From a bacterium (GTDB lineage Bacteria; Patescibacteriota; Minisyncoccia; Moranbacterales; UBA1568): a DNA stretch of 64,000 nt. The notes under the pieces were generated by a model. It saw only the letters and a list, made by a program, of their open reading frames with translations, did not search any database and was not told where the DNA came from. This document shows positions 3,050 to 59,474 of this stretch, in pieces. A program made the translations under genes and the position numbers. Where the stretch lies: the NCBI GenBank assembly GCA_021821305.1, contig JAKACP010000001.1:748421-812420 (forward strand), written 5' to 3'. The first letter of the stretch is position 1. Each line of letters begins with the position of its first letter.

Positions 3050-4339
3050 TCAGGCAAGGAAGTCCTTGCCGCGACGGCGCCGATGGTACCCGATCGCGAA
3101 CCGGTGTGCTTCGGCGTTGGCAAGGAGGATGTCCCGGCGATACTCGGCGATCGCCGTCCCGTCGCCCTCGAGACGTTCCGGCTGGTGCTTGCGGTTCTTG
3201 ACCACGCCGACGATCCGGACATCGCTCCAATCGGCACCCGCGAAGAGGCGCTCGGCGACGCCGAGCTGGAGGAACGATCCGTCCACGACGACGATGTCCG
3301 GCTTCGGCCATTCACGGTGCCGGAGCCGCCTCCGCAGGATCTCCTCGAGCGCGGTGAGATCGTTGCCGGCATGCCCGCCGCGGAGAAAGAATTTCCGGTA
3401 CTCGTCCGTATCCGACACGCCGTCTCGGGTCACCGTCATCACCCCCACGCTCGACTTCCCCCCGAGGTGCGCCACGTCATATGCCTCGATGCGTATTCCT
3501 CCCGTTTCCGCGTCCGCGGATCCGGCTTCCCGTTTCAGGAGGGAGACGTCCCGGATATGCCCGAGCGCGAATATGGTCGCCTTGGTATCGTTCGCCCGCT
3601 CGAACTCGAGCCGCGACGCTGCGGCATGCATCTCGCGCGTAAGCTTCCGCACGATTTCGGATTTCTTGCCCTCGAAAAAGAGTTCGATGTTCCGGATGAT
3701 GCGCCCGTATTCCCGGGCGGATATCTCGCCGGTACAGACGCCGGGGCAGAGTCCGATCTGTCGATGGAAGCACGGCTTCCCTTTTTTTCGTATCTCGTGT
3801 CCTGTATCTCGTGTCTTTCCGATTATCGGGACGCACTTGTCACGGAAGGGAAATATCGTCCGGACGATGCGCACCGCTTCCCGAAGCTGGGTGCCGTGCG
3901 GGAACGGGCCGTAGACGGATCGGATCGGCGCCACGAACTTCCCCTCCGCGAGGTCGCGCCCGCGCACGACGAGCACGCGCGGATATTCCTCGTCCGTGAT
4001 GACGACGTGATTGAAACTCTTGTCGTCCTTGGCGTCGGTATTGTACGGAGGCTGGTGCTCCCTGATGAGCCCGGACTCGAGCACGATCGCCTCGAGGACC
4101 GAGTCGACCCCCTGCCAGGATACGCTCCGGACGAGCTCGAGCATCTTCGCGATCTTGGGGCCGCGCGTCGCGAGGATGTCGGACGCGAAATAGCTCCGGA
4201 CCCGGTCGCGCAGACTCGTCGCCTTGCCGATATACAGGATACGACCGTCCTCATCCAGGAAGAAATAGACCCCCGGGGTATCCGGCAGTTTTTTGAGGTT
4301 TCCCGTATCCGTCGTGCCGTCGAATCTCGGTGATTTCAT
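3050..4339 (-). CDS. uvrC: excinuclease ABC subunit C, short form (GIY-YIG + UvrBC-interaction + RNaseH-like endonuclease domains, no C-terminal HhH)
   Basis: GVYFFLDEDGRILYIGKATSLRDRVRSYF GIY-YIG motif. The true start is MKSPRFDG at 4339 with an AAGGGGAA SD. 430 aa against ~600 for canonical UvrC. Confidence 0.85.
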   Translation of the reverse strand: MKSPRFDGTTDTGNLKKLPDTPGVYFFLDEDGRILYIGKATSLRDRVRSYFASDILATRGPKIAKMLELVRSVSWQGVDSVLEAIVLESGLIREHQPPYNTDAKDDKSFNHVVITDEEYPRVLVVRGRDLAEGKFVAPIRSVYGPFPHGTQLREAVRIVRTIFPFRDKCVPIIGKTRDTGHEIRKKGKPCFHRQIGLCPGVCTGEISAREYGRIIRNIELFFEGKKSEIVRKLTREMHAAASRLEFERANDTKATIFALGHIRDVSLLKREAGSADAETGGIRIEAYDVAHLGGKSSVGVMTVTRDGVSDTDEYRKFFLRGGHAGNDLTALEEILRRRLRHREWPKPDIVVVDGSFLQLGVAERLFAGADWSDVRIVGVVKNRKHQPERLEGDGTAIAEYRRDILLANAEAHRFAIGYHRRRRGKDFLA

Positions 4340-4442: not shown

Positions 4443-4760
4443 ATGGCCGTACACGACCATGAAGTGGTAGGACTGGCGAACAAAGTCATCGAGTTTCTCG
4501 GAAAAACACCCGAGGATGCGAAGCGGGCCCTTGGGCAGGGAAGCTACACCGATGCGCTGCTCGAGAAGGCGGCGTCGGAACTGAACATCACGTTTCGCGA
4601 CCGGGCACGGCACATCTACGTGGCGGGAGCCGTCCGGGACAGGATCACGAGAATCCTCTCCCGACGGACGCGCGGAGAAACGAAACCGGGCCCGATGGGC
4701 AAACCCCCGTCGCCACGCAGGACGCGTATCGAATACACGCTCACTCCGGAAGACGATTGA
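4443..4760 (+). CDS. small hypothetical protein (105 aa), monocistronic
   Basis: Strong promoter and SD upstream, intrinsic terminator immediately downstream. No family recognised. Confidence 0.6.
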   Translation: MAVHDHEVVGLANKVIEFLGKTPEDAKRALGQGSYTDALLEKAASELNITFRDRARHIYVAGAVRDRITRILSRRTRGETKPGPMGKPPSPRRTRIEYTLTPEDD

Positions 4761-4767
4761 ACGGCTG

Positions 4768-4797
4768 CAGGCAAGCAACGACTTGCCTGTTTTTTTC
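4768..4797 (+). terminator. Rho-independent terminator (caggcaag-loop-cttgcctg + T8)
   Basis: 8-bp GC-rich stem at 4768-4775 / 4782-4789 followed by tttttttcg. Confidence 0.6.
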
Positions 4798-49408: not shown

Positions 49409-51058
49409 TCACATCATTCCGCCCATGTCCATGCCGCCGCCATGGGGGTGTTCCTTCTTCTCCTCGGGAAGGTCGACGATCGCCGCCTCGGTGGTGAGGA
49501 GCAATGCCGCGACCGATACCGCGTTCTCGAGCGCGGTCCGCGTCACCTTCAAGGGATCGATGATCCCCGCCTTCACCATGTCCTCCTCGTACGTGTCATT
49601 CGAGGCGTTGTAGCCGAAATTGACGCCTTTTGCCTCGACCACCTTGGCCAGGACGACCGCCGGATCCTGTTCGCCCGCGTTCGCGGCGATCTGCCGCAAC
49701 GGGTCGGAAAGGGCGCGCAGGAGCGTCTCATAGCCCGCCTTGTACTCGTGGCTCTCATATTCCTTCTTCGCGTGGGCCAACGACACGGCCGCCGCCGCCT
49801 TGGCGAGCGCGGTCCCACCGCCGGCGACGATGCCCTCCTCGATCGCCGCGCGGGTCGCGTTCACCGCGTCCTCCATCTTATGCTTCATGTAGGTGAGCTC
49901 GGTCTCGGTCGAAGCGCCCACACGGATCACCGCGACGCCGCCCGAGAGTTTCGCCATGCGCTTCTTGGACTTGTCACGGTCGTATTCGCTCTCCGTCCGG
50001 TCGGCCTGCGCCCGGATCTCCGCGACGCGCGCGTCGATATCCTTCTTCTTCCCCTTGCCACCGACGATGGTCGTGTCGTCCTTGGTCGCGATCACCTTGG
50101 AGGCGCGGCCGAGCTGGTCGATCGTCGCCGCCTCGAGTTTCATCCCGGTCTCCTCCGAGATCACGGTAGCGCCGGTCAGGATCGCGATATCGCGAAGCAT
50201 CGCCTTCTTGTTCTCGCCGAACTCCGGCGCCTTGACCGCGAGCACGGAGAGCACGCCGCGAAGCCGGTTCACCACGAGCGTCGCGAGCGCCTCGCCGTCC
50301 ACGTCCTCGGCGATGATGACGATATCCTTCTTGCCCGACTGCGCGAGCGCGTTCAGTATCGGCACGATGTCATTGATGGCCGATATCTTCCGGTCGGTGA
50401 TGAGGATGTACGGATCGTTCACCTCCGCCGTCTGCGCTTCCGCGTCGGTCATCATATACGGCGAGATATAGCCCTTGTCGAAATTCATGCCCTTCACGAT
50501 CTCCTTGGAGAGACCGAGGGTATTGGACTGCTCGGTCGTCACGACGCCGTCCGATCCCACTTCATCGATCACCGACGCGATCATCTCGCCCATCTCGCGC
50601 GACTCCGCGGATATCGTCGCGACCTGCGTGATCTCCGCCTGGGACGAGATCTTCTTCGAATTCTTGGCGAGTACCGCCGTCACTTCCCGGAGCGCGCCTT
50701 CCATGCCCCGGCGGATGCCGATCGGATTGATGCCGGTCTCGACGAACTTGAGCCCCTCGCGGATGAGCGCGGATGCCACGACGGTCGCCGTCGTCGTCCC
50801 GTCGCCCGCGATGTCATTGGTCTTCTCGGCGACCTGTTTGATGAGCTCGGCGCCGAGGTTCTCATACTTGTCGGGCAGTTCGACTTCCTTGGCGATGGAT
50901 ACGCCGTCGTTGGTGATGGTCGGTCCGCCGAACGACTTGCCCAGGATCACGTTGCGCCCCTTGGGCCCGAGCGTCATCCGGACCGCGTTCGCGACCTTGT
51001 CGACTCCGATCTTGATACGCTTGCGCGCATCCTCGCTGTAGGCGATCTGTTTTGGCAT
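49409..51058 (-). CDS. groEL: chaperonin GroEL (60 kDa), C-terminal GGM tail
   Basis: Full-length GroEL, ending ...GGGMDMGGMM. Confidence 0.97.
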   Translation of the reverse strand: MPKQIAYSEDARKRIKIGVDKVANAVRMTLGPKGRNVILGKSFGGPTITNDGVSIAKEVELPDKYENLGAELIKQVAEKTNDIAGDGTTTATVVASALIREGLKFVETGINPIGIRRGMEGALREVTAVLAKNSKKISSQAEITQVATISAESREMGEMIASVIDEVGSDGVVTTEQSNTLGLSKEIVKGMNFDKGYISPYMMTDAEAQTAEVNDPYILITDRKISAINDIVPILNALAQSGKKDIVIIAEDVDGEALATLVVNRLRGVLSVLAVKAPEFGENKKAMLRDIAILTGATVISEETGMKLEAATIDQLGRASKVIATKDDTTIVGGKGKKKDIDARVAEIRAQADRTESEYDRDKSKKRMAKLSGGVAVIRVGASTETELTYMKHKMEDAVNATRAAIEEGIVAGGGTALAKAAAAVSLAHAKKEYESHEYKAGYETLLRALSDPLRQIAANAGEQDPAVVLAKVVEAKGVNFGYNASNDTYEEDMVKAGIIDPLKVTRTALENAVSVAALLLTTEAAIVDLPEEKKEHPHGGGMDMGGMM

Positions 51059-51081
51059 AATATCGTGTCGTTACGTGTTAG

Positions 51082-51108
51082 TTGGCACTCTCAGTTGATG
51101 ATTGCCAA
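51082..51108. promoter_or_regulatory. CIRCE-like inverted repeat (TTGGCACTC-N9-GATTGCCAA), HrcA operator candidate
   Basis: 9-N9-9 inverted repeat matching TTAGCACTC-N9-GAGTGCTAA at 15/18 positions. Located between the groEL -10 and the start codon. Confidence 0.65.
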
Positions 51109-51111
51109 TCC

Positions 51112-51140
51112 ATTCTAGAAACTTCCTTCTCCTCTGTCAA
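51112..51140 (-). promoter_or_regulatory. groEL promoter TTGACA-17-TAGAAT
   Basis: Reverse strand ttgaca (51140-51135), 17-nt spacer, tagaat (51117-51112). The -35 abuts/overlaps the end of repeat copy C. Confidence 0.6.
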
Positions 51141-51272
51141 GAAAACACAAACGGCCAGAACACAAACATCCAAAGAAAACACGGATTACAAACGGGATCC
51201 TGTTTGTGCTTTTGTTTTTTGTGTTTTTTTTGGCTTTTTGCGCACTGTGTTTTGTGTTTTCATTTTCAAGAT
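51141..51272. repeat. intergenic imperfect-palindromic repeat, copy C
   Basis: GAAAACACAAAC...GAACACAAACATCCAAA (shared with copy A), GGATCC-centred inner palindrome (shared with copy B), core TTGGCTTTTTGCGCACTGTGTTTTGTGTTTTC. Between the ychF stop and the groEL promoter. Confidence 0.7.
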
Positions 51273-52325
51273 TCATATCTTGAAAACGATGACATCCCCG
51301 TCCGCCACGACATAGTCCTTGCCTTCAAGTCGCAAGGTCCCCTCCTCGCGCGCGGCGGCCCAGGAGCCCGCGGCGATGAGCGCCTCGTAGCCGACCACCT
51401 CGGCGCGGATGAATTTCTCCTCGAAATCGCCGTGGATCGCGGCGCCGGCCTGCGGCGCGGTCGAACCCTGGCGTATCGTCCAGGCGCGCGTCTCCACCTC
51501 GCCGGTCGTGAAAAACGTCTCGAGACCGAGGAGCGAGTATGCCTCACGGATGAGTTCTCCGAGCCGCGAGACCATGCCGAGTTCCGCCGCTTCCTCGGCC
51601 GTCATCGTCCCGAGCTCCTCCTCGAGTTTGATATCGAGCCGGACATGCGGGAGGGCGGCGAGTTCCGCTGGAAGCGCGGCATCCGTATCGCTCATATTGT
51701 AGACATAGAGGAATGGTTTCGCCGTGAGAAGCGAGAGTCCTTTCATGAATCTCCCCGACTCTTCCGCATCGCCCGAAAGCGCGACCGTATTCGCGAGCCG
51801 CCCGACCTCCAGCACGGATTCTATCTCCTCGAGCCATTTCATCTCCTGTTCGGCGCCCTTGGCCCGGGCGCGCACGTCCTTGACGGTCTTTTCCTTGCGC
51901 CGGATCACCGTCTCGAGGTCGGCCAACACGAGCTCGGTGTTCACGATATCGATGTCCTCCTTCGGATCGACACGGTTGTGGACGTGGATGATATTGCCGT
52001 TCTCGAATACGCGCACCACCTGGACGATCGCATCCACCTCGCGGATGTTCGCGAGGAACTTGTTGCCGAGACCCTCGCCCTCCGACGCGCCCTTGACCAG
52101 CCCGGCGATATCGACGAATTCGAATACGGCAGGGATGAGCTTCTTGCTCCCGGAAAGCGCGGACAATGCGGCGAGCCGCGCGTCCGGAACCTCGACGACG
52201 CCGACATTGGGCTCGATCGTGCAGAAGGGATAGTTGTTGATATCGACCTGTTTCTTGGTCAACGCCGAAAACAGGGTCGATTTCCCCACGTTCGGAAGTC
52301 CGACGATACCGGCTTTCAGTGCCAT
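51273..52325 (-). CDS. ychF: ribosome-binding ATPase YchF (Obg-like GTPase family, C-terminal TGS/MoaD-like domain)
   Basis: [15 protein letters not shown]1 motif, NxxE/YchF signature, C-terminal TGS-like domain. Confidence 0.9.
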
Positions 52326-52327
52326 AT

Positions 52328-52582
52328 TTACCCTGTGAAATACGATTTGAGCCTATTTCTCAAAAACATCTTTCCTTTATAACTTTTTAGATATTTTTCC
52401 CTATGGGTAGCATCCTGTTGGAACAAACATGCCTCGTAGTAAATCAGCTTCAGGGGTCTACGATCTTTAGTTGATGGAACCAGACCCTTATTGTGCCGCT
52501 CAAATCGTAATTGCAAATCCTTAGTGTATCCTGTGTACATCTTTCCATCTTTTTTACTTAACAACACATATGTATAAAACAT
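52328..52582 (-). CDS. small stand-alone GIY-YIG nuclease-domain protein (UPF0213/YhbQ-like, 84 aa) in a low-GC patch
   Basis: YVLLSKKDGKMYTGYTKDLQLRFERHN GIY-YIG motif. Local GC is far below that of the surrounding window (52326-52790). Confidence 0.75.
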   Translation of the reverse strand: MFYTYVLLSKKDGKMYTGYTKDLQLRFERHNKGLVPSTKDRRPLKLIYYEACLFQQDATHREKYLKSYKGKMFLRNRLKSYFTG

Positions 52583-52790
52583 ATGAACAGGATTTGCAAT
52601 ATTTCACAGGGCAGGCAAGATATTCCCTTATTCTGCCAAAAAAAAGCCTTTCGGTCAACAAAAAAGAGCGGCTATCCGAAGATATCGCCGCCCTTCACGA
52701 TCGCGCGAAAAAAAAGACTGATCTTTGCCGCAGACTCTCTTGTCGAGAATATGCGGAAAAATCAGTCTGTCATGAAGCCTACGCGAAGTG

Positions 52791-53756
52791 TTACTTCACG
52801 GCTTCGAGCTTCTTGCCATTCCCTTCGGCCGACGGCGGCATCGAACTTTTCACCAGTTCCTGGAAATACGCGGCGAATTCGCTGTCGCTGAACGGCGTGC
52901 CCGCTTCCGGAGTCTTCGGTTTCCCGAGCACCCAGTAGGTGGCGCCGATGCGTCCGTCAGGATGCGTGGAGGCCGCGCTCTTGGAAAATGCCGCCGCCAG
53001 ACCGAGAACCGCCCCCAGGGCAGGATTGCTGCTGCCGACGATGCCTGCCGCGGCGCCGCCGAGGGAAAAGCCGTTGCCTTCCGTGCCCACACCGAGTGCC
53101 GTACCGATCGACTGCTCCGGAGAAACGATATAGATCTCCGAATAGCCTTCCAGGTTGTTGAAGACATACTTCACCGTGTCGTCACGTACGACGTTGATGT
53201 TCACCTTGCTTTCCGAGCCCTTTTCGGCCGTCGTCATGATGACGCCGATGCACACGTAGTTGCCGGAAGCCGCAGGAAAGCGCGGAAGTACCCGCGCAGG
53301 CGAGCCGCTCCCGGCGCGCTTTTTCTTGTAGTCCGGGTAGGACGTGAACACGACTTCGGTCTTGCCGCTCCAGCCGGCACCCGCATCGGTATACGAGTCG
53401 TTTCCTTTTGTATATTCCGGCTGGCACTTCTTCTCGAAGTACATGCTCGGAGCGATGTTGTTGATGTTGGTCGGATTCGACAACGGGCCGAAGCTGAACA
53501 CCTGGGGTGTCGGAACCCCGACGCCCGGCATGCCGGGCAACGTCACGGGAATATCCGTACCCTCGCTGTTGAACTGCTGGTCGACATTGGCTCCCGCGAT
53601 ACCGAAGCCGCCGACATTGTTGCTTTGAGCGCCGATGGCGGCGGATCCTGAGACAGCCGTCGAACCGGATGTCGCCGTATTGTCCGCAAGGACGGTTCCG
53701 GCGGTCAGGAAACAGGATATCGCTATGAGCGACAGGGAAAGAGAACGTTTTTGCAT
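52791..53756 (-). CDS. secreted hypothetical protein (signal peptide; G/S/T-rich N-region), 321 aa
   Basis: MQKRSLSLSLIAISCFLTAGTVLA signal peptide. No family recognised. Confidence 0.55.
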   Translation of the reverse strand: MQKRSLSLSLIAISCFLTAGTVLADNTATSGSTAVSGSAAIGAQSNNVGGFGIAGANVDQQFNSEGTDIPVTLPGMPGVGVPTPQVFSFGPLSNPTNINNIAPSMYFEKKCQPEYTKGNDSYTDAGAGWSGKTEVVFTSYPDYKKKRAGSGSPARVLPRFPAASGNYVCIGVIMTTAEKGSESKVNINVVRDDTVKYVFNNLEGYSEIYIVSPEQSIGTALGVGTEGNGFSLGGAAAGIVGSSNPALGAVLGLAAAFSKSAASTHPDGRIGATYWVLGKPKTPEAGTPFSDSEFAAYFQELVKSSMPPSAEGNGKKLEAVK

Positions 53757-53887
53757 GACGGAATTGCTCCTCTATTATCTTGTTCAAGCAAGAAAAGAGG
53801 GTCAAGGGAATGTGTTCTTCCCCTGACCCTTTTGTTTCTGACCTCAGACCGAGACAGTCTCAGTTTAAAAGGTCATCGGCCCCTGCT

Positions 53888-54304
53888 TCAGAACCAGGAC
53901 GAGTATGCCATGCCGCCGGCGCCAGCGCCGGCGGTGCTCATCGCGGTACCGTTCATGACACCTGCGAACGAGCCGGTCATCGAACCTGCGGTCGTACCGG
54001 AGGAGCCACCGGACTGGTAGGCCATAGCGCCCGAAGTCGCGGTTCCCGAGGTAGTGCCCAGAGCGCCCATCACGTTGCCGCCGGTCATGCCTGCGGCATG
54101 AACCTGCGTCGCACCGGTCCAGGACATCGTTTGGGAACCGCCTTGATAGCCGGCGTTGAAGCCGCCTTGCCCGTGAAGGACGGAGGCCCCACCGTCGATG
54201 CCGCCGGAGACCCACGAGTTGCCGGCCGCAATCGATGCGGAGGCGGCGAGGACGAGGGCGAGAGCGCTGATGCCACTGATCACGTTCTTGATGCTTTTCT
54301 TCAT
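53888..54304 (-). CDS. small secreted Gly/Ser/Thr/Ala-rich low-complexity protein (138 aa)
   Basis: GAAGGGA SD. MKKSIKNVISGISALALVLAASASIAA signal peptide, then GGxxG-rich low complexity. Confidence 0.5.
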   Translation of the reverse strand: MKKSIKNVISGISALALVLAASASIAAGNSWVSGGIDGGASVLHGQGGFNAGYQGGSQTMSWTGATQVHAAGMTGGNVMGALGTTSGTATSGAMAYQSGGSSGTTAGSMTGSFAGVMNGTAMSTAGAGAGGMAYSSWF

Positions 54305-54598
54305 TTTGTATTTCCCTTCAGTTGGTTGAACGAACGATAACGACAAAGACGCGACCCTTCTCAAAACAGAACTTTTTTTTTCCTGTCGGAATGGACTGAA
54401 TTTTCAAAGAGCCGCTTGCACCGCTTAAAAAAAACAACGCTCCGAAGGAGCATCGTTCAATTCAGCGGTTTTCACACTTTAGCACACCAAGATATCCTTG
54501 TCAAGTCTCCATACTGCTTTTCTTCTGGACAATGCCTTCCGCATGAAGGAAACAATCGGCCTAAAAAACCGTATTTTGGCTATTAAAAGCCAATACTA

Positions 54599-54627
54599 TT
54601 GACAAGATACGGAAAACATGCTAGACT
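54599..54627 (+). promoter_or_regulatory. promoter TTGACA-17-TAGACT for the LysM-SLT gene, preceded by TTGGCT-N6-AGCCAA inverted repeat
   Basis: ttgaca at 54599-54604, tagact at 54622-54627. AAAGGAGGG SD at 54660-54668. Confidence 0.55.
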
Positions 54628-54674
54628 GTCCCTTCGGATCTTTCACAATTTTTCATCCGAAAGGAGGGCTTGAA

Positions 54675-55478
54675 ATGCTCAGATACGTCATGATTGTCCT
54701 GTGGCTCCTGATGTGCGCCCCGGCATCCGCCGCGGCCTACGTCGTGGAAAAGGGCGATACGCTCTCGCATATCGCCAAGCGCTTCGGCACGACCGTCGGA
54801 TCGCTCGTCGAGACCAACGGCATCGCCGACCCGGATCTCATCTTGGTCGGGCAGACGCTCGACATTCCATCATCAATCTCCACTCCGGAAAAATCTGTCG
54901 CGCAAGCGAAACAGAGTATTTATCCGGAGCCGACTGCGAAAGCAGCCACTCGGGATAAACACGCCGCTTCCTCTACCAATGCACCAACACAGCGCATTGC
55001 CAAGAAGAAGCACCGTGGCGTATCCCGCCACCCGGAAACCGCATTCAAACGCATCGATGCCATCGTGAAGGCATATGATCCGATCGTGGAACAAGCCTCG
55101 CTCCAATACGGAGTACCCAAACGATACATCTACGGACTCATCTATCATGAGTCGGGAGGCAACCCGTACGCCATCGGCGACCGCGGACGCTCCCGCGGAC
55201 TCATGCAGCTCCACGACCCCACGCGGATCAAGCTCGGCCTCACCAAGAAAGAGGCTCACGATCCGGCAAAGGCGATTCCCGCCGGAGCCCGATACCTGCG
55301 AGAACAGTACGACACGTTCGGCAAGGACCCTATCGCGGCCATCTCGGCCTACAACGCTCCGCTTCGCACGAAAAAGATGCTCGCGCGAGGAGCCGATCCG
55401 TCGAGTCGGGACTATGTCCGCAGGGTCAGAGCCGCCATGGATCTCTTCACGGAATACCATCGGGCCAAACAGGCCTGA
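54675..55478 (+). CDS. secreted LysM-domain lytic transglycosylase (LysM + SLT domain)
   Basis: Signal peptide. LysM (YVVEKGDTLSHIAKRFGTTVGSLVETNG). SLT catalytic motif (IYHESGGNPYAIG...GLMQL...AYNA). Confidence 0.85.
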   Translation: MLRYVMIVLWLLMCAPASAAAYVVEKGDTLSHIAKRFGTTVGSLVETNGIADPDLILVGQTLDIPSSISTPEKSVAQAKQSIYPEPTAKAATRDKHAASSTNAPTQRIAKKKHRGVSRHPETAFKRIDAIVKAYDPIVEQASLQYGVPKRYIYGLIYHESGGNPYAIGDRGRSRGLMQLHDPTRIKLGLTKKEAHDPAKAIPAGARYLREQYDTFGKDPIAAISAYNAPLRTKKMLARGADPSSRDYVRRVRAAMDLFTEYHRAKQA

Positions 55479-58126: not shown

Positions 58127-59383
58127 TCACGCCAGAAAACCGACCCGCTCCCTCACCTGCCGCATCTTGTCGCTTGCGACGGCGCGGGCCTTTTCTGCGC
58201 CGGCACGGAGGACGCTCATCGCCTCCTCGTCGGAGATACTGGACATCTTCGCCTGGAAACCAGCAAGAAACGACGCGACGACTTCGGCCAAGTCGCGCTT
58301 GAAATCGGCATACCCCTTCCCCGCATACAGGGAAACGATCTCCTCCGGCGTCTTCCCGTCGAGGAGCGAATAGATGGTGATGAGATTCCTGAGCGCGGGC
58401 TTGTCATCCTGATAGGCGATTTCGGTCCCGCTGTCCGTCACGGCTTTCATGATCTTCTTTCTCGCCTGCTCGGGATCGTCGGAGAGCGCGATGTAGTTGT
58501 ACTCGCTCGCCGCGGATTTGGACATCTTCTTGGTCGGGTCGTCGAGCCCCATGATCCGTGCGCCTTCTTTCATCACGCGCGGCTCGGGCACGACAAACGT
58601 CTCGCCGAAGCGGTCATTGAACCGCCGCGCGAGCGTACGGGTCAGCTCCACGTGCTGGACCTGATCGTCCCCCACTGGCACGACCGCCGCACCATAGAGC
58701 AGGATATCCGCCGCCATGAGCACGGGGTAGTCGAAGAGCCCAACGCCGATAGTTTCCCGCTGATCTTTGTATAGATCCTCCATCTTTACAAAGAGTGAAA
58801 CAATGGAACCTAAAGCCTGCATCGAACTCGTATATTGTTTTCTAAAATTCCCTTCATGGACAGACAAATCTAACAAAATAGAAGCGCCATTATCTGAATT
58901 TTTTGTCTCTAGCCACTCCCTAAGCTTAGAGTAGGATTCTTCCACTTTTTGATACAATCTATCATTCTCTCCTCTGGCAGAATTCAAACTATCTACCGAA
59001 GATTTTATAAACTCGTCTTTATCTCTTCGAAGAGAACTAAGCCCCGCCTTATCCTTAAACTGCGTCATCTTCTCAAGGTCTCCGAGGCGTGCCACGGTAT
59101 TGAGTATCCACATGAGCTCGGTATGCTCCGGGACATGCGATTGGACGAAGAGCGTCGCCTTGGACGGATCTATCCCCGCGGCGAGGTAAACCTTCGCGAT
59201 CTCGAGCGTCTTCCTGCGAAGTTCGGCCGGATCCTGAGGCACGGTGATCGCGTGGAGGTCGACCACGGAAAAGAACGCCTCACACTCGTCCTGGAGCGGG
59301 ATCCACTGCCGGATGGCGCCGAGATAGTTGCCGAGATGGAGGTTGCCCGAGGGCTGGATACCGGAAAACAGTCGCTTGTTCAT
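58127..59383 (-). CDS. trpS: tryptophan--tRNA ligase (TrpRS) carrying a ~100-aa low-GC in-frame insertion
   Basis: HLGNYLGA (HIGH), KMSKS, MTQFKDK...LFDYPVLMAADILLY. About 100 extra residues between FKDKAG and LFDYP are encoded by DNA of much lower GC (about 58750-59045). Extended -10 TGCTACAAT upstream. Confidence 0.85.
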   Translation of the reverse strand: MNKRLFSGIQPSGNLHLGNYLGAIRQWIPLQDECEAFFSVVDLHAITVPQDPAELRRKTLEIAKVYLAAGIDPSKATLFVQSHVPEHTELMWILNTVARLGDLEKMTQFKDKAGLSSLRRDKDEFIKSSVDSLNSARGENDRLYQKVEESYSKLREWLETKNSDNGASILLDLSVHEGNFRKQYTSSMQALGSIVSLFVKMEDLYKDQRETIGVGLFDYPVLMAADILLYGAAVVPVGDDQVQHVELTRTLARRFNDRFGETFVVPEPRVMKEGARIMGLDDPTKKMSKSAASEYNYIALSDDPEQARKKIMKAVTDSGTEIAYQDDKPALRNLITIYSLLDGKTPEEIVSLYAGKGYADFKRDLAEVVASFLAGFQAKMSSISDEEAMSVLRAGAEKARAVASDKMRQVRERVGFLA

Positions 59384-59474
59384 AGGAAAAACTGAGTAAT
59401 TCGCTTTCATTGTAGCATAAAAAGAAAAAAGGCGCTCCGATGTTTCGGAACGCCCTCGAGGCGGGACAGGAGGA

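What the first reader, a model, noticed from the sequence alone, without database searches (positions are those of the whole stretch)
52326..52790. Low-GC islet carrying a stand-alone 84-aa GIY-YIG nuclease gene
A ~460-bp stretch immediately after ychF is strongly AT-rich relative to the genome. It encodes only a minimal GIY-YIG (URI/YhbQ-like) nuclease, followed by ~200 bp of AT-rich non-coding DNA with inverted repeats (GACTGAT...ATCAGTC). The composition says recent horizontal acquisition. Minimal GIY-YIG genes are classic selfish or homing-type cargo.
Basis: partly seen in the sequence, partly recalled or inferred. Interest (0 to 1): 0.5.

Follow-up and report, generated by a model that had tools for sequence, protein, structure and literature searches.

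The report
Mobile three-way-junction GIY-YIG nuclease element
A roughly 290-bp selfish DNA element that carries only an 84-residue nuclease gene, and whose ends and coding sequence pair into a conserved three-armed fold, sits between the promoter and the start codon of ychF in this Patescibacteria genome; it looks like a very small mobile relative of the recently described Ssn single-strand-DNA nucleases.

Summary
The low-GC stretch and the 84-aa GIY-YIG gene are real: GC is 0.36 for the ORF and 0.40 for the islet, against 0.60 for the window.

The islet is not one unit. The roughly 175 bp upstream (52618-52790) is host DNA. It holds two terminators of the neighbouring gene and the ychF promoter, and it is conserved in a relative that lacks the nuclease gene.

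The inserted unit is about 288 bp (52328-52615, minus strand). Its 5' leader and three stretches of its own coding sequence form a nearly fully paired three-way junction, P1/P2/P3.

Across 96 related elements from many phyla:
- 89.6% of cells pair.
- 25 of 38 pairs show compensatory changes, some between synonymous sites about 50 codons apart.
- There is no excess of G·U over A·C.

Seven sampled YchF relatives (72-96% identity) lack the element. Paralogous copies share identity only between the P1 ends. ORF-less "minis" keep a miniature three-way junction. One pair of genomes shares a 560-bp identical tract that ends at the element's 3' end.

Best reading: a compact mobile element encoding an Ssn-like ssDNA nuclease that acts on its own folded DNA. 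It is a new variant of the Ssn/hairpin-repeat systems. The biochemistry is inferred, not shown.

The parts
52328..52615 (-). The inserted mobile unit, a 'three-way-junction element' of about 288 bp. It runs from the left end CCTGCCCTGTG... to ...CACAGGGTAA.
   Evidence: It is absent from L166, which has the same synteny. Paralogous copies (L006/L007, L125/L123) are identical only from (G)TTNACCC to GGGT(A/G)AA. It folds as a three-way junction as RNA (z -4.4) and as DNA on either strand (z -4.8 and -5.0).
52328..52582 (-). 84-aa single-domain GIY-YIG nuclease gene, with the stop codon TAA at 52328-52330.
   Evidence: Pfam PF01541, E 6.7e-15. More than 7000 homologue clusters; the 120 best hits are 75-93% identical and almost all 83-93 aa. 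Y5, Y16, G18, R26, H30 and E50 are invariant in 42 homologues. The AF2 model has pLDDT 92. dN 0.046 against dS of at least 1.2.
52600..52615 (-). P1 5' arm (CCCTGTGAAATA, 52611-52600) plus the outer CCTG (52615-52612); non-coding leader.
   Evidence: It is a perfect 12-nt complement of 52331-52342 (I5). It covaries with codons 81-84 in 96 elements.
52331..52342 (-). P1 3' arm (TATTTCACAGGG), which is the last four codons, YFTG.
   Evidence: For example, alignment column 13/295 reads UA 50, GC 35, CG 8.
52590..52600 (-). P2 5' arm (ATTGCAAATCC), in the leader just before the start codon.
   Evidence: It is complementary to 52510-52520 (I1). 10 of 12 P2 pairs show double changes.
52510..52520 (-). 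P2 3' arm (GGATTTGCAAT), in codons 21-25.
52498..52509 (-). P3 5' arm (TACGATTTGAGC), in codons 25-29.
   Evidence: It is a perfect complement of 52341-52352 (I2). The synonymous Arg change AGA/CGA covaries with the synonymous Ser change TCT/TCG (column 125/289: AU 70, CG 25, 1 broken).
52341..52352 (-). P3 3' arm (GCTCAAATCGTA), in codons 77-81.
52630..52658 (-). Host promoter-like site TTGACC-17-(TG)CAGAAT. It would drive the element and ychF. It is not part of the element.
   Evidence: It is conserved in the empty-site relative L166.
52657..52768 (-). Two tandem intrinsic terminators of the upstream gene: hairpin 52715-52768 plus U8, and hairpin 52663-52696 plus U6.
   Evidence: -31.6 kcal/mol, z -5.8; -18.2 kcal/mol, z -2.8. 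Homologous hairpins are present in L166 and L001.
51273..52325 (-). ychF, the host gene whose 5' UTR is occupied. Its start codon lies 2 nt after the element's stop codon.
   Evidence: Pfam YchF-GTPase_C and MMR_HSR1. The closest homologues are named Moranbacteria / Moraniibacteriota.
52791..53756 (-). Upstream host gene: a 321-aa predicted secreted protein with no Pfam match. It forms the context boundary.
   Evidence: A homologue is present in L166 (322 aa) and absent in L164.

Best explanation
The feature is a compact mobile element of about 288 bp, inserted between the ychF promoter and the ychF start codon.

It encodes one protein: an 84-aa stand-alone GIY-YIG nuclease, related about equally to the Ssn ssDNA nucleases and to UPF0213.

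The element is built so that one strand folds into an almost fully paired three-way junction:
- P1 pairs the two ends of the element.
- P2 pairs the leader with codons 21-25.
- P3 pairs codons 25-29 with codons 77-81.

Shown here:
- the fold is under strong selection;
- the unit that moves is exactly the junction;
- ORF-less derivatives keep a miniature junction;
- the element is present or absent among close relatives;
- it has been exchanged between diverged genomes at this locus.

Inferred:
- the fold acts as single-stranded DNA, for example on the lagging-strand template or on incoming transforming DNA;
- the fold is the substrate that the encoded nuclease binds and nicks at or near the base of P1, by analogy with Ssn nucleases that bind hairpin repeats flanking their own genes;
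- host ligation, repair or recombination completes excision, insertion or gene conversion.

Because the element sits in the 5' UTR in the sense orientation, it is transcribed from the host promoter. Its stop codon abuts the ychF start, which keeps ychF expressed.
For: Structure:
- Nested perfect repeats of 10-12 nt wrap the ORF.
- The predicted minimum-free-energy fold is a three-way junction.
- RNAalifold finds the same three helices independently in 96 elements.
- Pair counts: 89.6% of cells pair, against 27-53% for slid controls. 25 of 38 pairs have double changes. The covariation score is 0.253 against 0.107±0.004, with 0 of 500 shuffles as high.
- Synonymous sites about 50 codons apart covary.

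DNA rather than RNA:
- More than 95% of pairs are strict Watson-Crick.
- G·U (about 30) is roughly equal to A·C (about 28) in the core helices.
- Both strands fold equally well as DNA.
- Minis use mostly triloop hairpins.
- The characterised Ssn enzymes bind ssDNA hairpins only, not RNA or dsDNA (PMC11893778).

Mobility:
- Empty sites occur in seven YchF relatives.
- Paralogous copies are identical only between the P1 ends, with unrelated flanks and no target duplication.
- 33 ORF-less minis were found in about 0.96 Mb, against 0 in shuffled sequence. Ten of the 12 that were folded give perfect miniature three-way junctions as DNA.
- Minis are nested inside full copies.
- L001 and L002 have identical elements within a 560-bp stretch of 100% identity, while the adjacent ychF genes differ (dS 0.97).
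- The family precedes unrelated housekeeping genes in many phyla.
- Placement is orientation-specific: 27 of 87 copies against 2 of 87, p = 2e-7.

Protein:
- The catalytic residues are invariant.
- dN/dS is about 0.02-0.04.
- hhalign against a GIY-YIG protein flanked by canonical Ssn repeats gives 97% probability, E 5.7e-11.
- The nearest solved folds are UPF0213 and the Slx1 nuclease domain.
Against: - No biochemistry exists for this protein or this fold.
- The canonical Ssn-related motif is absent from the window and from all 130 related elements tested.
- By sequence, the protein is as close to UPF0213/YazA, a syntenic host gene without flanking hairpins, as it is to the SRM-flanked Ssn-type protein (against 86).
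- The G·U/A·C symmetry argument is indirect. One outer pair shows 24 G·U against 1 A·C on the sense strand.
- GIY-YIG enzymes are hydrolases, so insertion at new sites needs unknown partners.
- No target-site rule was found.
- The window contains a single copy and no minis. Current activity in this genome is therefore unproven.
- The pattern at ychF could reflect repeated loss rather than gain.
- Some loci come from metagenome bins, where assembly across repeats can create chimeras.
Confidence: 0.6

Rival explanations
1. The three-way junction acts as RNA. The ychF-promoter transcript folds so that the 5' leader pairs with the 3' end of the nuclease ORF. This would stabilise the mRNA, throttle translation of a toxic nuclease (the start codon lies in the P2 loop), and position the ychF start for coupled translation. 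Mobility would be a separate matter.
For: - The promoter-like site places the transcript start about 10 nt before P1.
- The RNA fold is strong (-85 kcal/mol, z -4.4).
- The stop codon and the ychF start lie at the base of P1.
- Many copies are followed at once by a co-oriented start codon.
- The outer pair 6/302 shows 24 G·U against 1 A·C on the sense strand.
Against: - ORF-less minis, with nothing to translate, keep the same junction geometry.
- The ends of the mobile DNA unit coincide with the base of P1.
- There is no G·U excess in the core helices, and wobble pairs make up only about 1% of pairs.
- There is no Rfam match.
- Characterised relatives do not bind RNA (PMC11893778).
Confidence: 0.2
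2. It is a classical free-standing homing endonuclease gene. The protein recognises and cuts double-stranded DNA at the empty ychF 5' region, and repair copies the gene in. The inverted repeats would be incidental or regulatory.
For: - The element is present or absent at one locus among relatives.
- There is a conversion-like identical tract ending at the element/ychF junction in L001 against L002.
- ychF linkage occurs in three diverged lineages.
- GIY-YIG is a known homing endonuclease fold; the I-TevI catalytic domain appears among the fold matches.
Against: - At 84 aa the protein is the catalytic domain alone, with no DNA-binding domain.
- The family occupies dozens of unrelated sites.
- Paralogous copies have unrelated flanks.
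- Dispersed ORF-less minis exist.
- The massive covariation of internal helices has no role in this model.
- There were no viral or intron relatives.
Confidence: 0.1
3. It is a domesticated, no longer mobile Ssn-like gene that serves the host. For example, it could restrict or modulate incoming single-stranded transforming DNA that carries the junction, as SsnA does with NTS repeats in Neisseria. Its position at ychF would be fixed in this lineage.
For: - Purifying selection on the protein is very strong (dN/dS about 0.03).
- The window has a single copy and no minis.
- Synonymous divergence of ychF-linked copies is as old as that of ychF.
- There is a Neisseria precedent (PMC11893778).
Against: - The closest relatives lack it.
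- A restriction role needs target repeats in the genome or in the incoming DNA pool. None are present in this 64-kb window.
- Other genomes show recent transposition and minis.
Confidence: 0.08
4. It is an ordinary resident housekeeping gene (UPF0213/YazA-like) co-transcribed with ychF. Its low GC and repeats would be side effects of an AT-rich, lysine-rich small protein.
For: Sequence similarity to YazA and EF2693-type UPF0213 proteins. Operon-like spacing with ychF.
Against: - It is absent in seven YchF relatives.
- Its neighbours vary across the family.
- The non-coding leader covaries with the coding sequence.
- Minis exist.
Confidence: 0.02

Closest known systems
Ssn nucleases with flanking NTS/SRM hairpin repeats (Chenal et al. 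2025, Nat Commun 16:2388; PMC11893778)
   Same: - Both are single-domain GIY-YIG proteins of about 84-97 aa.
- In both, the gene is bracketed by sequences that form DNA secondary structure.
- Dispersed ORF-less copies of the structured repeat occur in the same genomes.
- Profile similarity to a protein flanked by canonical SRM repeats is E 5.7e-11.
- Rhizobial relatives have hairpins with the same CCCTGTG/CACAGGG core as P1.
   Different: - Here the two flanks do not each form their own hairpin. They pair with each other and with the coding sequence to give one three-way junction that contains the whole gene.
- The published SRM motif is absent: 0 of 130 elements.
- Here there is direct comparative evidence of mobility. 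The paper only raised the IS analogy.
- The hosts here are mainly Patescibacteria, which the RefSeq-based survey hardly covered.
REP elements with RAYT (REP-associated tyrosine transposases), and IS200/IS605
   Same: - A small nuclease gene is flanked by inverted structured repeats.
- ORF-less structured repeats are dispersed in the genome.
- There is no target-site duplication.
- Single-stranded folded DNA is the presumed substrate.
- Placement is orientation-biased.
   Different: - The enzyme is a hydrolytic GIY-YIG domain, not an HUH/Y1 transposase that forms a covalent intermediate.
- The structure is a single three-way junction spanning the ORF, not subterminal hairpins.
- The element is less than half the size of IS200.
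Free-standing GIY-YIG homing endonucleases (phage T4 Seg proteins, I-TevI)
   Same: They share the GIY-YIG catalytic fold, intergenic placement next to conserved genes, and conversion-like tracts between alleles.
   Different: This protein has no DNA-binding domain. The family occupies many unrelated sites, has ORF-less derivatives, and has no phage relatives.
UPF0213 proteins (B. subtilis YazA, BH0048 1ZG2, EF2693 1YWL, E. coli YhbQ class)
   Same: These are the closest solved structures and have comparable sequence similarity. They are of similar size.
   Different: In the two plasmid records examined (B. subtilis yazA and an Enterococcus gallinarum homologue), the gene lies immediately downstream of the tRNA1(Val) (adenine(37)-N6)-methyltransferase gene trmNF. 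No flanking-junction architecture or mobility is known for this family.
Slx1 structure-specific nuclease
   Same: It is the best crystal-structure match to the model (TM 0.62-0.64, rmsd 2.2-3 Å). Slx1 cuts branched DNA, including three-way and flap structures.
   Different: Slx1 is eukaryotic. It has a RING domain and needs Slx4. It acts in repair and is not encoded inside its own substrate.
Folded single-strand recombination sites (integron attC; CTX phage attP)
   Same: Function resides in a secondary structure of one DNA strand rather than in the duplex sequence. Pairing covaries while the sequence drifts.
   Different: Those sites are used by tyrosine recombinases and do not enclose the gene of the enzyme that acts on them.

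Membership tests
GIY-YIG nuclease superfamily | Match to the GIY-YIG domain model, with the catalytic Tyr/Tyr-Gly/Arg/His/Glu residues present | tested here: met
   Pfam PF01541, E 6.7e-15, above the cutoff. Y5, Y16, G18, R26, H30 and E50 are invariant in 42 homologues. The AF2 model has the expected fold.
Ssn family (cd10448; PMC11893778) | Single-domain GIY-YIG protein of about 90-100 aa with no extra domains | tested here: met
   84 aa. The domain covers residues 1-71 and the remainder is a single helix.
Ssn family (cd10448; PMC11893778) | Placement in the cd10448 clade, or blastp E < 1e-10 with 75% coverage against N. meningitidis SsnA | not testable with these tools
   Neither CDD nor the SsnA sequence (CAX49033.1) was available. 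As a proxy, hhalign against an Azospirillum protein flanked by canonical SRM repeats gave E 5.7e-11. UPF0213 proteins score equally well (E 4e-11 and 6e-12), so the proxy does not discriminate.
Ssn family (cd10448; PMC11893778) | Gene flanked on both sides by Ssn-related motif hairpins (HGTCWY...RNCYNB) | tested here: not met
   A regex of the published motif gave 0 hits in the whole window and 0 in all 130 related elements (±300 nt). It found 4 hits around the Azospirillum positive control. Structured flanks do exist, but in a different form (a three-way junction).
Ssn family (cd10448; PMC11893778) | Site-specific cleavage of ssDNA only, next to the bound hairpin | not testable with these tools
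   This needs purified protein and oligonucleotides. The only indirect support is Watson-Crick-only covariation without G·U bias.
Homing endonuclease gene (free-standing) | Presence/absence at one conserved site, with co-conversion of flanks | tested here: inconclusive
   Empty and filled ychF sites both occur. One clear identical tract exists between L001 and L002. However, most family members sit at unrelated sites.
Homing endonuclease gene (free-standing) | Sequence-specific DNA-binding module in addition to the nuclease domain | tested here: not met
   No second domain was found in Pfam, NCBIfam or the structure model.
Insertion sequence with MITE-like derivatives | Discrete ends shared by copies at non-homologous loci | tested here: met
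   For L006/L007 and L125/L123, identity starts at (G)TTNACCC and stops at GGGT(A/G)AA, and the flanks are unrelated.
Insertion sequence with MITE-like derivatives | Non-autonomous short derivatives with the same ends | tested here: met
   33 distinct minis against 0 in shuffled sequence. Some are nested in full copies.
Insertion sequence with MITE-like derivatives | Encoded protein is a known transposase class (DDE, HUH, serine or tyrosine), or target-site duplications are present | tested here: not met
   The only ORF is GIY-YIG. No target-site duplication was seen.
Any Rfam RNA family (ribozyme, intron, riboswitch) | Covariance-model match | tested here: not met
   cmscan of 51000-54700 on both strands at E ≤ 1 gave only two chance matches elsewhere.
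UPF0213 (YazA/YhbQ) | Conserved syntenic host gene without flanking structured repeats | tested here: not met
   The gene is absent from seven YchF relatives. Neighbours vary across the family. Structured flanks are present.

The most novel reading that the evidence does not exclude
This could be the smallest autonomous transposable element known in bacteria, at about 290 bp. In this reading, an 84-aa hydrolytic GIY-YIG nuclease recognises the shape of its own gene folded as a single-stranded DNA three-way junction and nicks at the base of P1. With host ligase or repair, this lets the folded unit and its ORF-less mini-junctions be cut out and placed into other single-stranded sites, preferentially just 5' of start codons. 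That would be a transposition chemistry and a substrate geometry outside the DDE, HUH, serine and tyrosine classes.
Probability: 0.25. Interest if true: 0.9.

Novelty: new variant of a known kind. Interest (0 to 1): 0.68.

Why it matters
Three points would matter if the reading holds.

1. It would extend the newly found Ssn/hairpin-repeat systems. These would go from a curiosity of Proteobacteria to a widespread, demonstrably mobile element class in Patescibacteria and other uncultured phyla. It would also show an extreme overlap of codes: four of the six helix strands of a DNA fold are written inside an 84-codon gene, down to covarying synonymous sites.

2. It offers a concrete, testable substrate (mini three-way junctions of 46-60 nt) for a shape-specific ssDNA nuclease. 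That is of interest for ssDNA tools.

3. It is a caution for genome scanning. A strongly deviant GC content can be maintained by constraint for as long as the neighbouring genes have diverged, so it does not date an acquisition.

Tried and rejected
- **Viral contigs:** a scan with the protein found no relatives, so a phage origin was dropped.
- **Rfam:** no family matched, so a ribozyme, intron or riboswitch was dropped. A hammerhead-like reading was considered and rejected because the junction has 0-2 unpaired nucleotides and lacks the conserved core.
- **Simple terminal inverted repeats bound by a protein:** rejected because the internal helices P2 and P3, partly or wholly coding, covary just as strongly.
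- **Recent transfer of the window copy from an L001-like donor:** dS of the element (1.2-2.8) is not lower than dS of ychF (1.37), so this was not supported.
- **Target-site duplication or a common insertion motif:** none was found. Some copies have extra outer inverted repeats instead.
- **Published SRM motif:** absent.
- **P0001, the top protein hit:** it turned out to be a fusion of two copies, not a close relative.
- **Minis or second copies in the window:** none were found.
- **Literature:** ten searches found only the Ssn paper as relevant. Nothing was found on a junction-embedded GIY-YIG element.
- **Exact insertion point:** alignment of the empty site (L166) with the filled site could not place it to better than about 10 nt, because the 5' UTRs have diverged.
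Full report
**1. What is at the coordinates**

The minus strand carries three genes in order: groEL (49409..51058), ychF (51273..52325), and an 84-codon ORF (52328..52582). The ORF's stop codon lies 2 nt before the ychF start.

- The ORF matches Pfam GIY-YIG (E 6.7e-15).
- The ORF has GC 0.361 and the 465-bp stretch has GC 0.40, against 0.599 for the window. Both are the most extreme values in the window (z -4.7 and -4.9).
- GC3 is 0.40 in the ORF against 0.80 in ychF.

The factual core of the finding therefore holds.

**2. The islet is two different things**

The "AT-rich non-coding DNA with inverted repeats" upstream of the ORF contains three host features:

- a second hairpin followed by U6;
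- a TTGACC-17-(TG)CAGAAT promoter-like site.

All of this is conserved in relative L166. That relative has the same gene order (SLT, 138 aa, 322 aa, ychF, groEL) but only 177 bp, and no GIY-YIG gene, between the 322-aa gene and ychF.

The insert therefore lies between the -10 box and the ychF ATG. It spans about 52328-52615.

**3. The unexpected anatomy**

The repeat search showed three nested, perfect inverted repeats that wrap the ORF. In the sense orientation:

- **P1:** CCCTGTGAAATA in the leader pairs with TATTTCACAGGG, the last four codons.
- **P2:** ATTGCAAATCC follows immediately in the leader and pairs with GGATTTGCAAT in codons 21-25.
- **P3:** TACGATTTGAGC in codons 25-29 pairs with GCTCAAATCGTA in codons 77-81.

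The six strands abut one another. The fold is therefore a three-way junction with at most two unpaired nucleotides.

It is the predicted minimum-energy fold as RNA (-85 kcal/mol, z -4.4). It is also the predicted fold as DNA on either strand (z -4.8 and -5.0).

**4. The fold is selected**

The protein has more than 7000 homologue clusters. The 120 best hits are 75-93% identical and almost all 83-93 aa; those that carry an organism name come from Patescibacteria.

Scans of genome and metagenome contigs returned 160 loci. A viral scan returned none.

In 96 distinct elements:

- RNAalifold recovers the same three helices.
- For the full 38-pair structure, 89.6% of cells pair, against 27-53% when partners are slid by 1-3 columns.
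- 25 pairs show changes on both sides, in 322 cells.
- The covariation score is 0.253 against 0.107±0.004 in shuffles, with 0 of 500 as high.

The clearest case involves two synonymous changes about 50 codons apart. The Arg codon AGA/CGA (codon 26) covaries with the Ser codon TCT/TCG (codon 80): 70 A-U, 25 C-G, 1 broken. No protein-level reason couples these sites.

**5. RNA or DNA?**

- In the core helices, more than 95% of pairs are strict Watson-Crick.
- G·U on the sense strand (about 30 cells) is no more frequent than A·C (about 28). Structured RNAs normally tolerate G·U and not A·C.
- The ORF-less derivatives described below keep the fold although nothing is translated. Their hairpins mostly have triloops.
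- The only characterised relatives are the Ssn nucleases. They bind hairpins in single-stranded DNA and cut beside them, with no activity on dsDNA or RNA (PMC11893778).

I therefore favour a single-stranded DNA fold, at about 0.7 against an RNA fold. The RNA reading is not excluded:

- the promoter would start the transcript about 10 nt before P1;
- the stop codon and the ychF start sit at the base of P1;
- one outer pair shows a sense-strand G·U bias.

**6. It is mobile**

(a) Presence and absence.
- YchF relatives at 96, 91, 86, 84, 80, 77 and 72% identity all lack the gene upstream of ychF.
- The 72% relative has a mini-junction there instead.
- ychF-linked copies were found only in the window, in L001-L003, and in L084/L085/L004. 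The YchF proteins of those other loci are 69-79% identical to the window's.

(b) Ends.
- Two copies in one metagenome bin (L006/L007, ORF 99.6% identical) align only from (G)TTNACCC to GGGT(A/G)AA.
- The same holds for the pair L125/L123 (96.8% identical).
- The flanks are unrelated and there is no target duplication.
- The moving unit is therefore exactly the junction.

(c) Derivatives.
- 33 distinct ORF-less elements with P1-type ends occur in about 0.96 Mb of fetched loci, against none in shuffled sequence.
- Ten of the 12 that were folded as DNA form perfect miniature three-way junctions: P1 plus two short GC hairpins of unrelated sequence (z -4.8 to -9.5).
- Three full copies carry such a mini at the same place inside P3.

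(d) Exchange.
- L001, from a complete 1.2-Mb Moraniibacteriota genome, and L002 have nucleotide-identical elements.
- These lie within a 560-bp stretch of 100% identity, itself within about 1.25 kb at 93-100%.
- The identity ends at the element's 3' end. The adjoining ychF genes differ by about 20% (dS 0.97).

(e) Contexts.
- Elsewhere the element precedes genes for pyruvate kinase, epimerases, phosphoglucomutase, NusA, CTP synthase, exonuclease VII and others.
- 27 of 87 copies are followed within 2-37 nt by a co-oriented long ORF. Only 2 of 87 have a divergent ORF on the other side (p = 2e-7).

**7. Age and composition**

- Between the window and L001, the element's synonymous divergence (dS 1.2; 2.8 outside the stems) is as saturated as that of ychF (1.37).
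- Its dN is five times lower than that of ychF (0.046 against 0.255).
- All ychF-linked copies keep GC 0.36-0.40 in hosts whose ychF has GC 0.48-0.62.

The protein is therefore under very strong purifying selection, and low GC persists. Composition alone does not show recency. Whether the window lineage gained the element after splitting from its 96% and 91% relatives, or those relatives lost it, cannot be decided from these data.

**8. The protein**

- The AF2 model is confident (pLDDT 92).
- The nearest solved structures are UPF0213 BH0048, then Slx1 nuclease domains (TM 0.62-0.64), then the I-TevI catalytic domain.
- Sequence searches of solved structures find only UPF0213 proteins.
- No NCBIfam model reaches its cutoff.
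- The catalytic residues are invariant in 42 homologues.

**9. Comparison with what is known**

Chenal et al. (2025) described Ssn as follows:

- about 94-aa single-domain GIY-YIG nucleases (CDD cd10448);
- genes flanked on both sides by hairpin repeats (NTS/SRM) that also occur dispersed in the genome;
- binding of the repeat as ssDNA and cleavage upstream of it;
- modulation of transformation in Neisseria.

The authors noted the resemblance to an insertion sequence and to REP/RAYT, but they did not show mobility.

Tests made here:

- The published SRM motif is absent from the window and from all 130 related elements. It does find four copies around an Azospirillum GIY-YIG gene lying between sufB and sufC, which served as a positive control.
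- The family profile aligns to that Azospirillum protein at E 5.7e-11. It aligns equally well to UPF0213 proteins.
- A Sinorhizobium relative is flanked by hairpins with the same CCCTGTG/CACAGGG core as P1.

I therefore class the element as working like an Ssn system. Formal family membership remains unsettled. Its architecture is new: one junction that contains the gene, rather than separate flanking hairpins. No paper in the searchable library describes this architecture.

**10. Verdict**

- The mechanism is inferred. The encoded nuclease probably recognises its own gene folded as a single-stranded three-way junction, and host functions complete movement or conversion.
- Confidence in this overall reading is about 0.6. 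Confidence that the fold is selected and that the unit is mobile is above 0.9.

Noticed in passing
window 58127-59410 (-), especially 58673-59175: The tryptophanyl-tRNA synthetase gene carries an in-frame stretch of much lower GC (minimum 0.357) than the rest of the gene. The TrpRS gene of relative L001 also has a low-GC segment (L001 501-750, GC 0.38).
   Followed up: no
L071-L083 (e.g. L081 about 3950-4290): A GIY-YIG subfamily about 50% identical to the window protein lies next to tRNA genes. Upstream of the ORF is a duplicated tRNA 5' half interrupted by CCCTGGCCGGGCAGG, and downstream is the intact tRNA start. This suggests tRNA-targeted insertion.
   Followed up: no
L042, L050, L054, L062; and L045 3955-4290, L046, L049, L052, L055: Other subfamilies of the same small nuclease have different flanking inverted repeats: GCCGTTCCAAC/GTTGGAACGGC, and CCCGCCCGCC..GCGAGC / GCTCGC..GGCGGGCAGG. 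The latter has its own ORF-less copies (L045 4520-4570).
   Followed up: partly
L045 about 4707-4790, L067 about 1022-1075, L048 about 2085-2145: Three full elements carry a mini three-way junction at the same position, after CTAAGA (codon 26, inside P3). Four nucleotides (TTTG) of the host copy are missing. In L048 the insert is in frame.
   Followed up: partly
L164/L165 against window 52330-54560: The closest relative (YchF 96% identical) lacks the element and also both secreted-protein genes (52791..53756 and 53888..54364). In that relative the SLT/LysM gene abuts ychF.
   Followed up: partly
L173 (Azospirillum lipoferum plasmid AZO_p3, 255506-255799): A GIY-YIG gene with four canonical Ssn-related repeats (CGTCATCCCCGCGAAGGCGGGGATCCAG) sits between sufB and sufC.
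   Followed up: partly
L172 (Sinorhizobium meliloti pSymB, around 1664692-1664982): A GIY-YIG gene is flanked by hairpins ATTCCTGTG..CACAGGAAT and CATCCCTGTG..CACAGGGATG. These share the CCCTGTG/CACAGGG core of P1 in the Patescibacteria elements.
   Followed up: no
L177 1393-1444; L085 2117-2166; L004 3827-3878: Mini three-way junctions lie upstream of the ychF promoter in more distant Moranbacteria-like relatives. The ychF upstream region appears to be a recurrent landing place.
   Followed up: partly
L005 about 3890-3910; L144 about 720-735: The 3' end GGG of one element is followed directly by TTCACCCTGT, the left end of another element or mini. This is a tandem, head-to-tail arrangement.
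   Followed up: no
L171 2001-2405 (protein P0001): A 134-aa ORF is a fusion of two GIY-YIG copies, apparently from recombination between elements. It lies next to a RelB / YafQ-ParE toxin-antitoxin pair.
   Followed up: partly
A2 columns 10/298 (position 4 of P1): This is the only core base pair that is often mismatched: 14 of 96 full elements, and many minis. It could be a recognition feature, or simply the free third base of the Thr codon.
   Followed up: no
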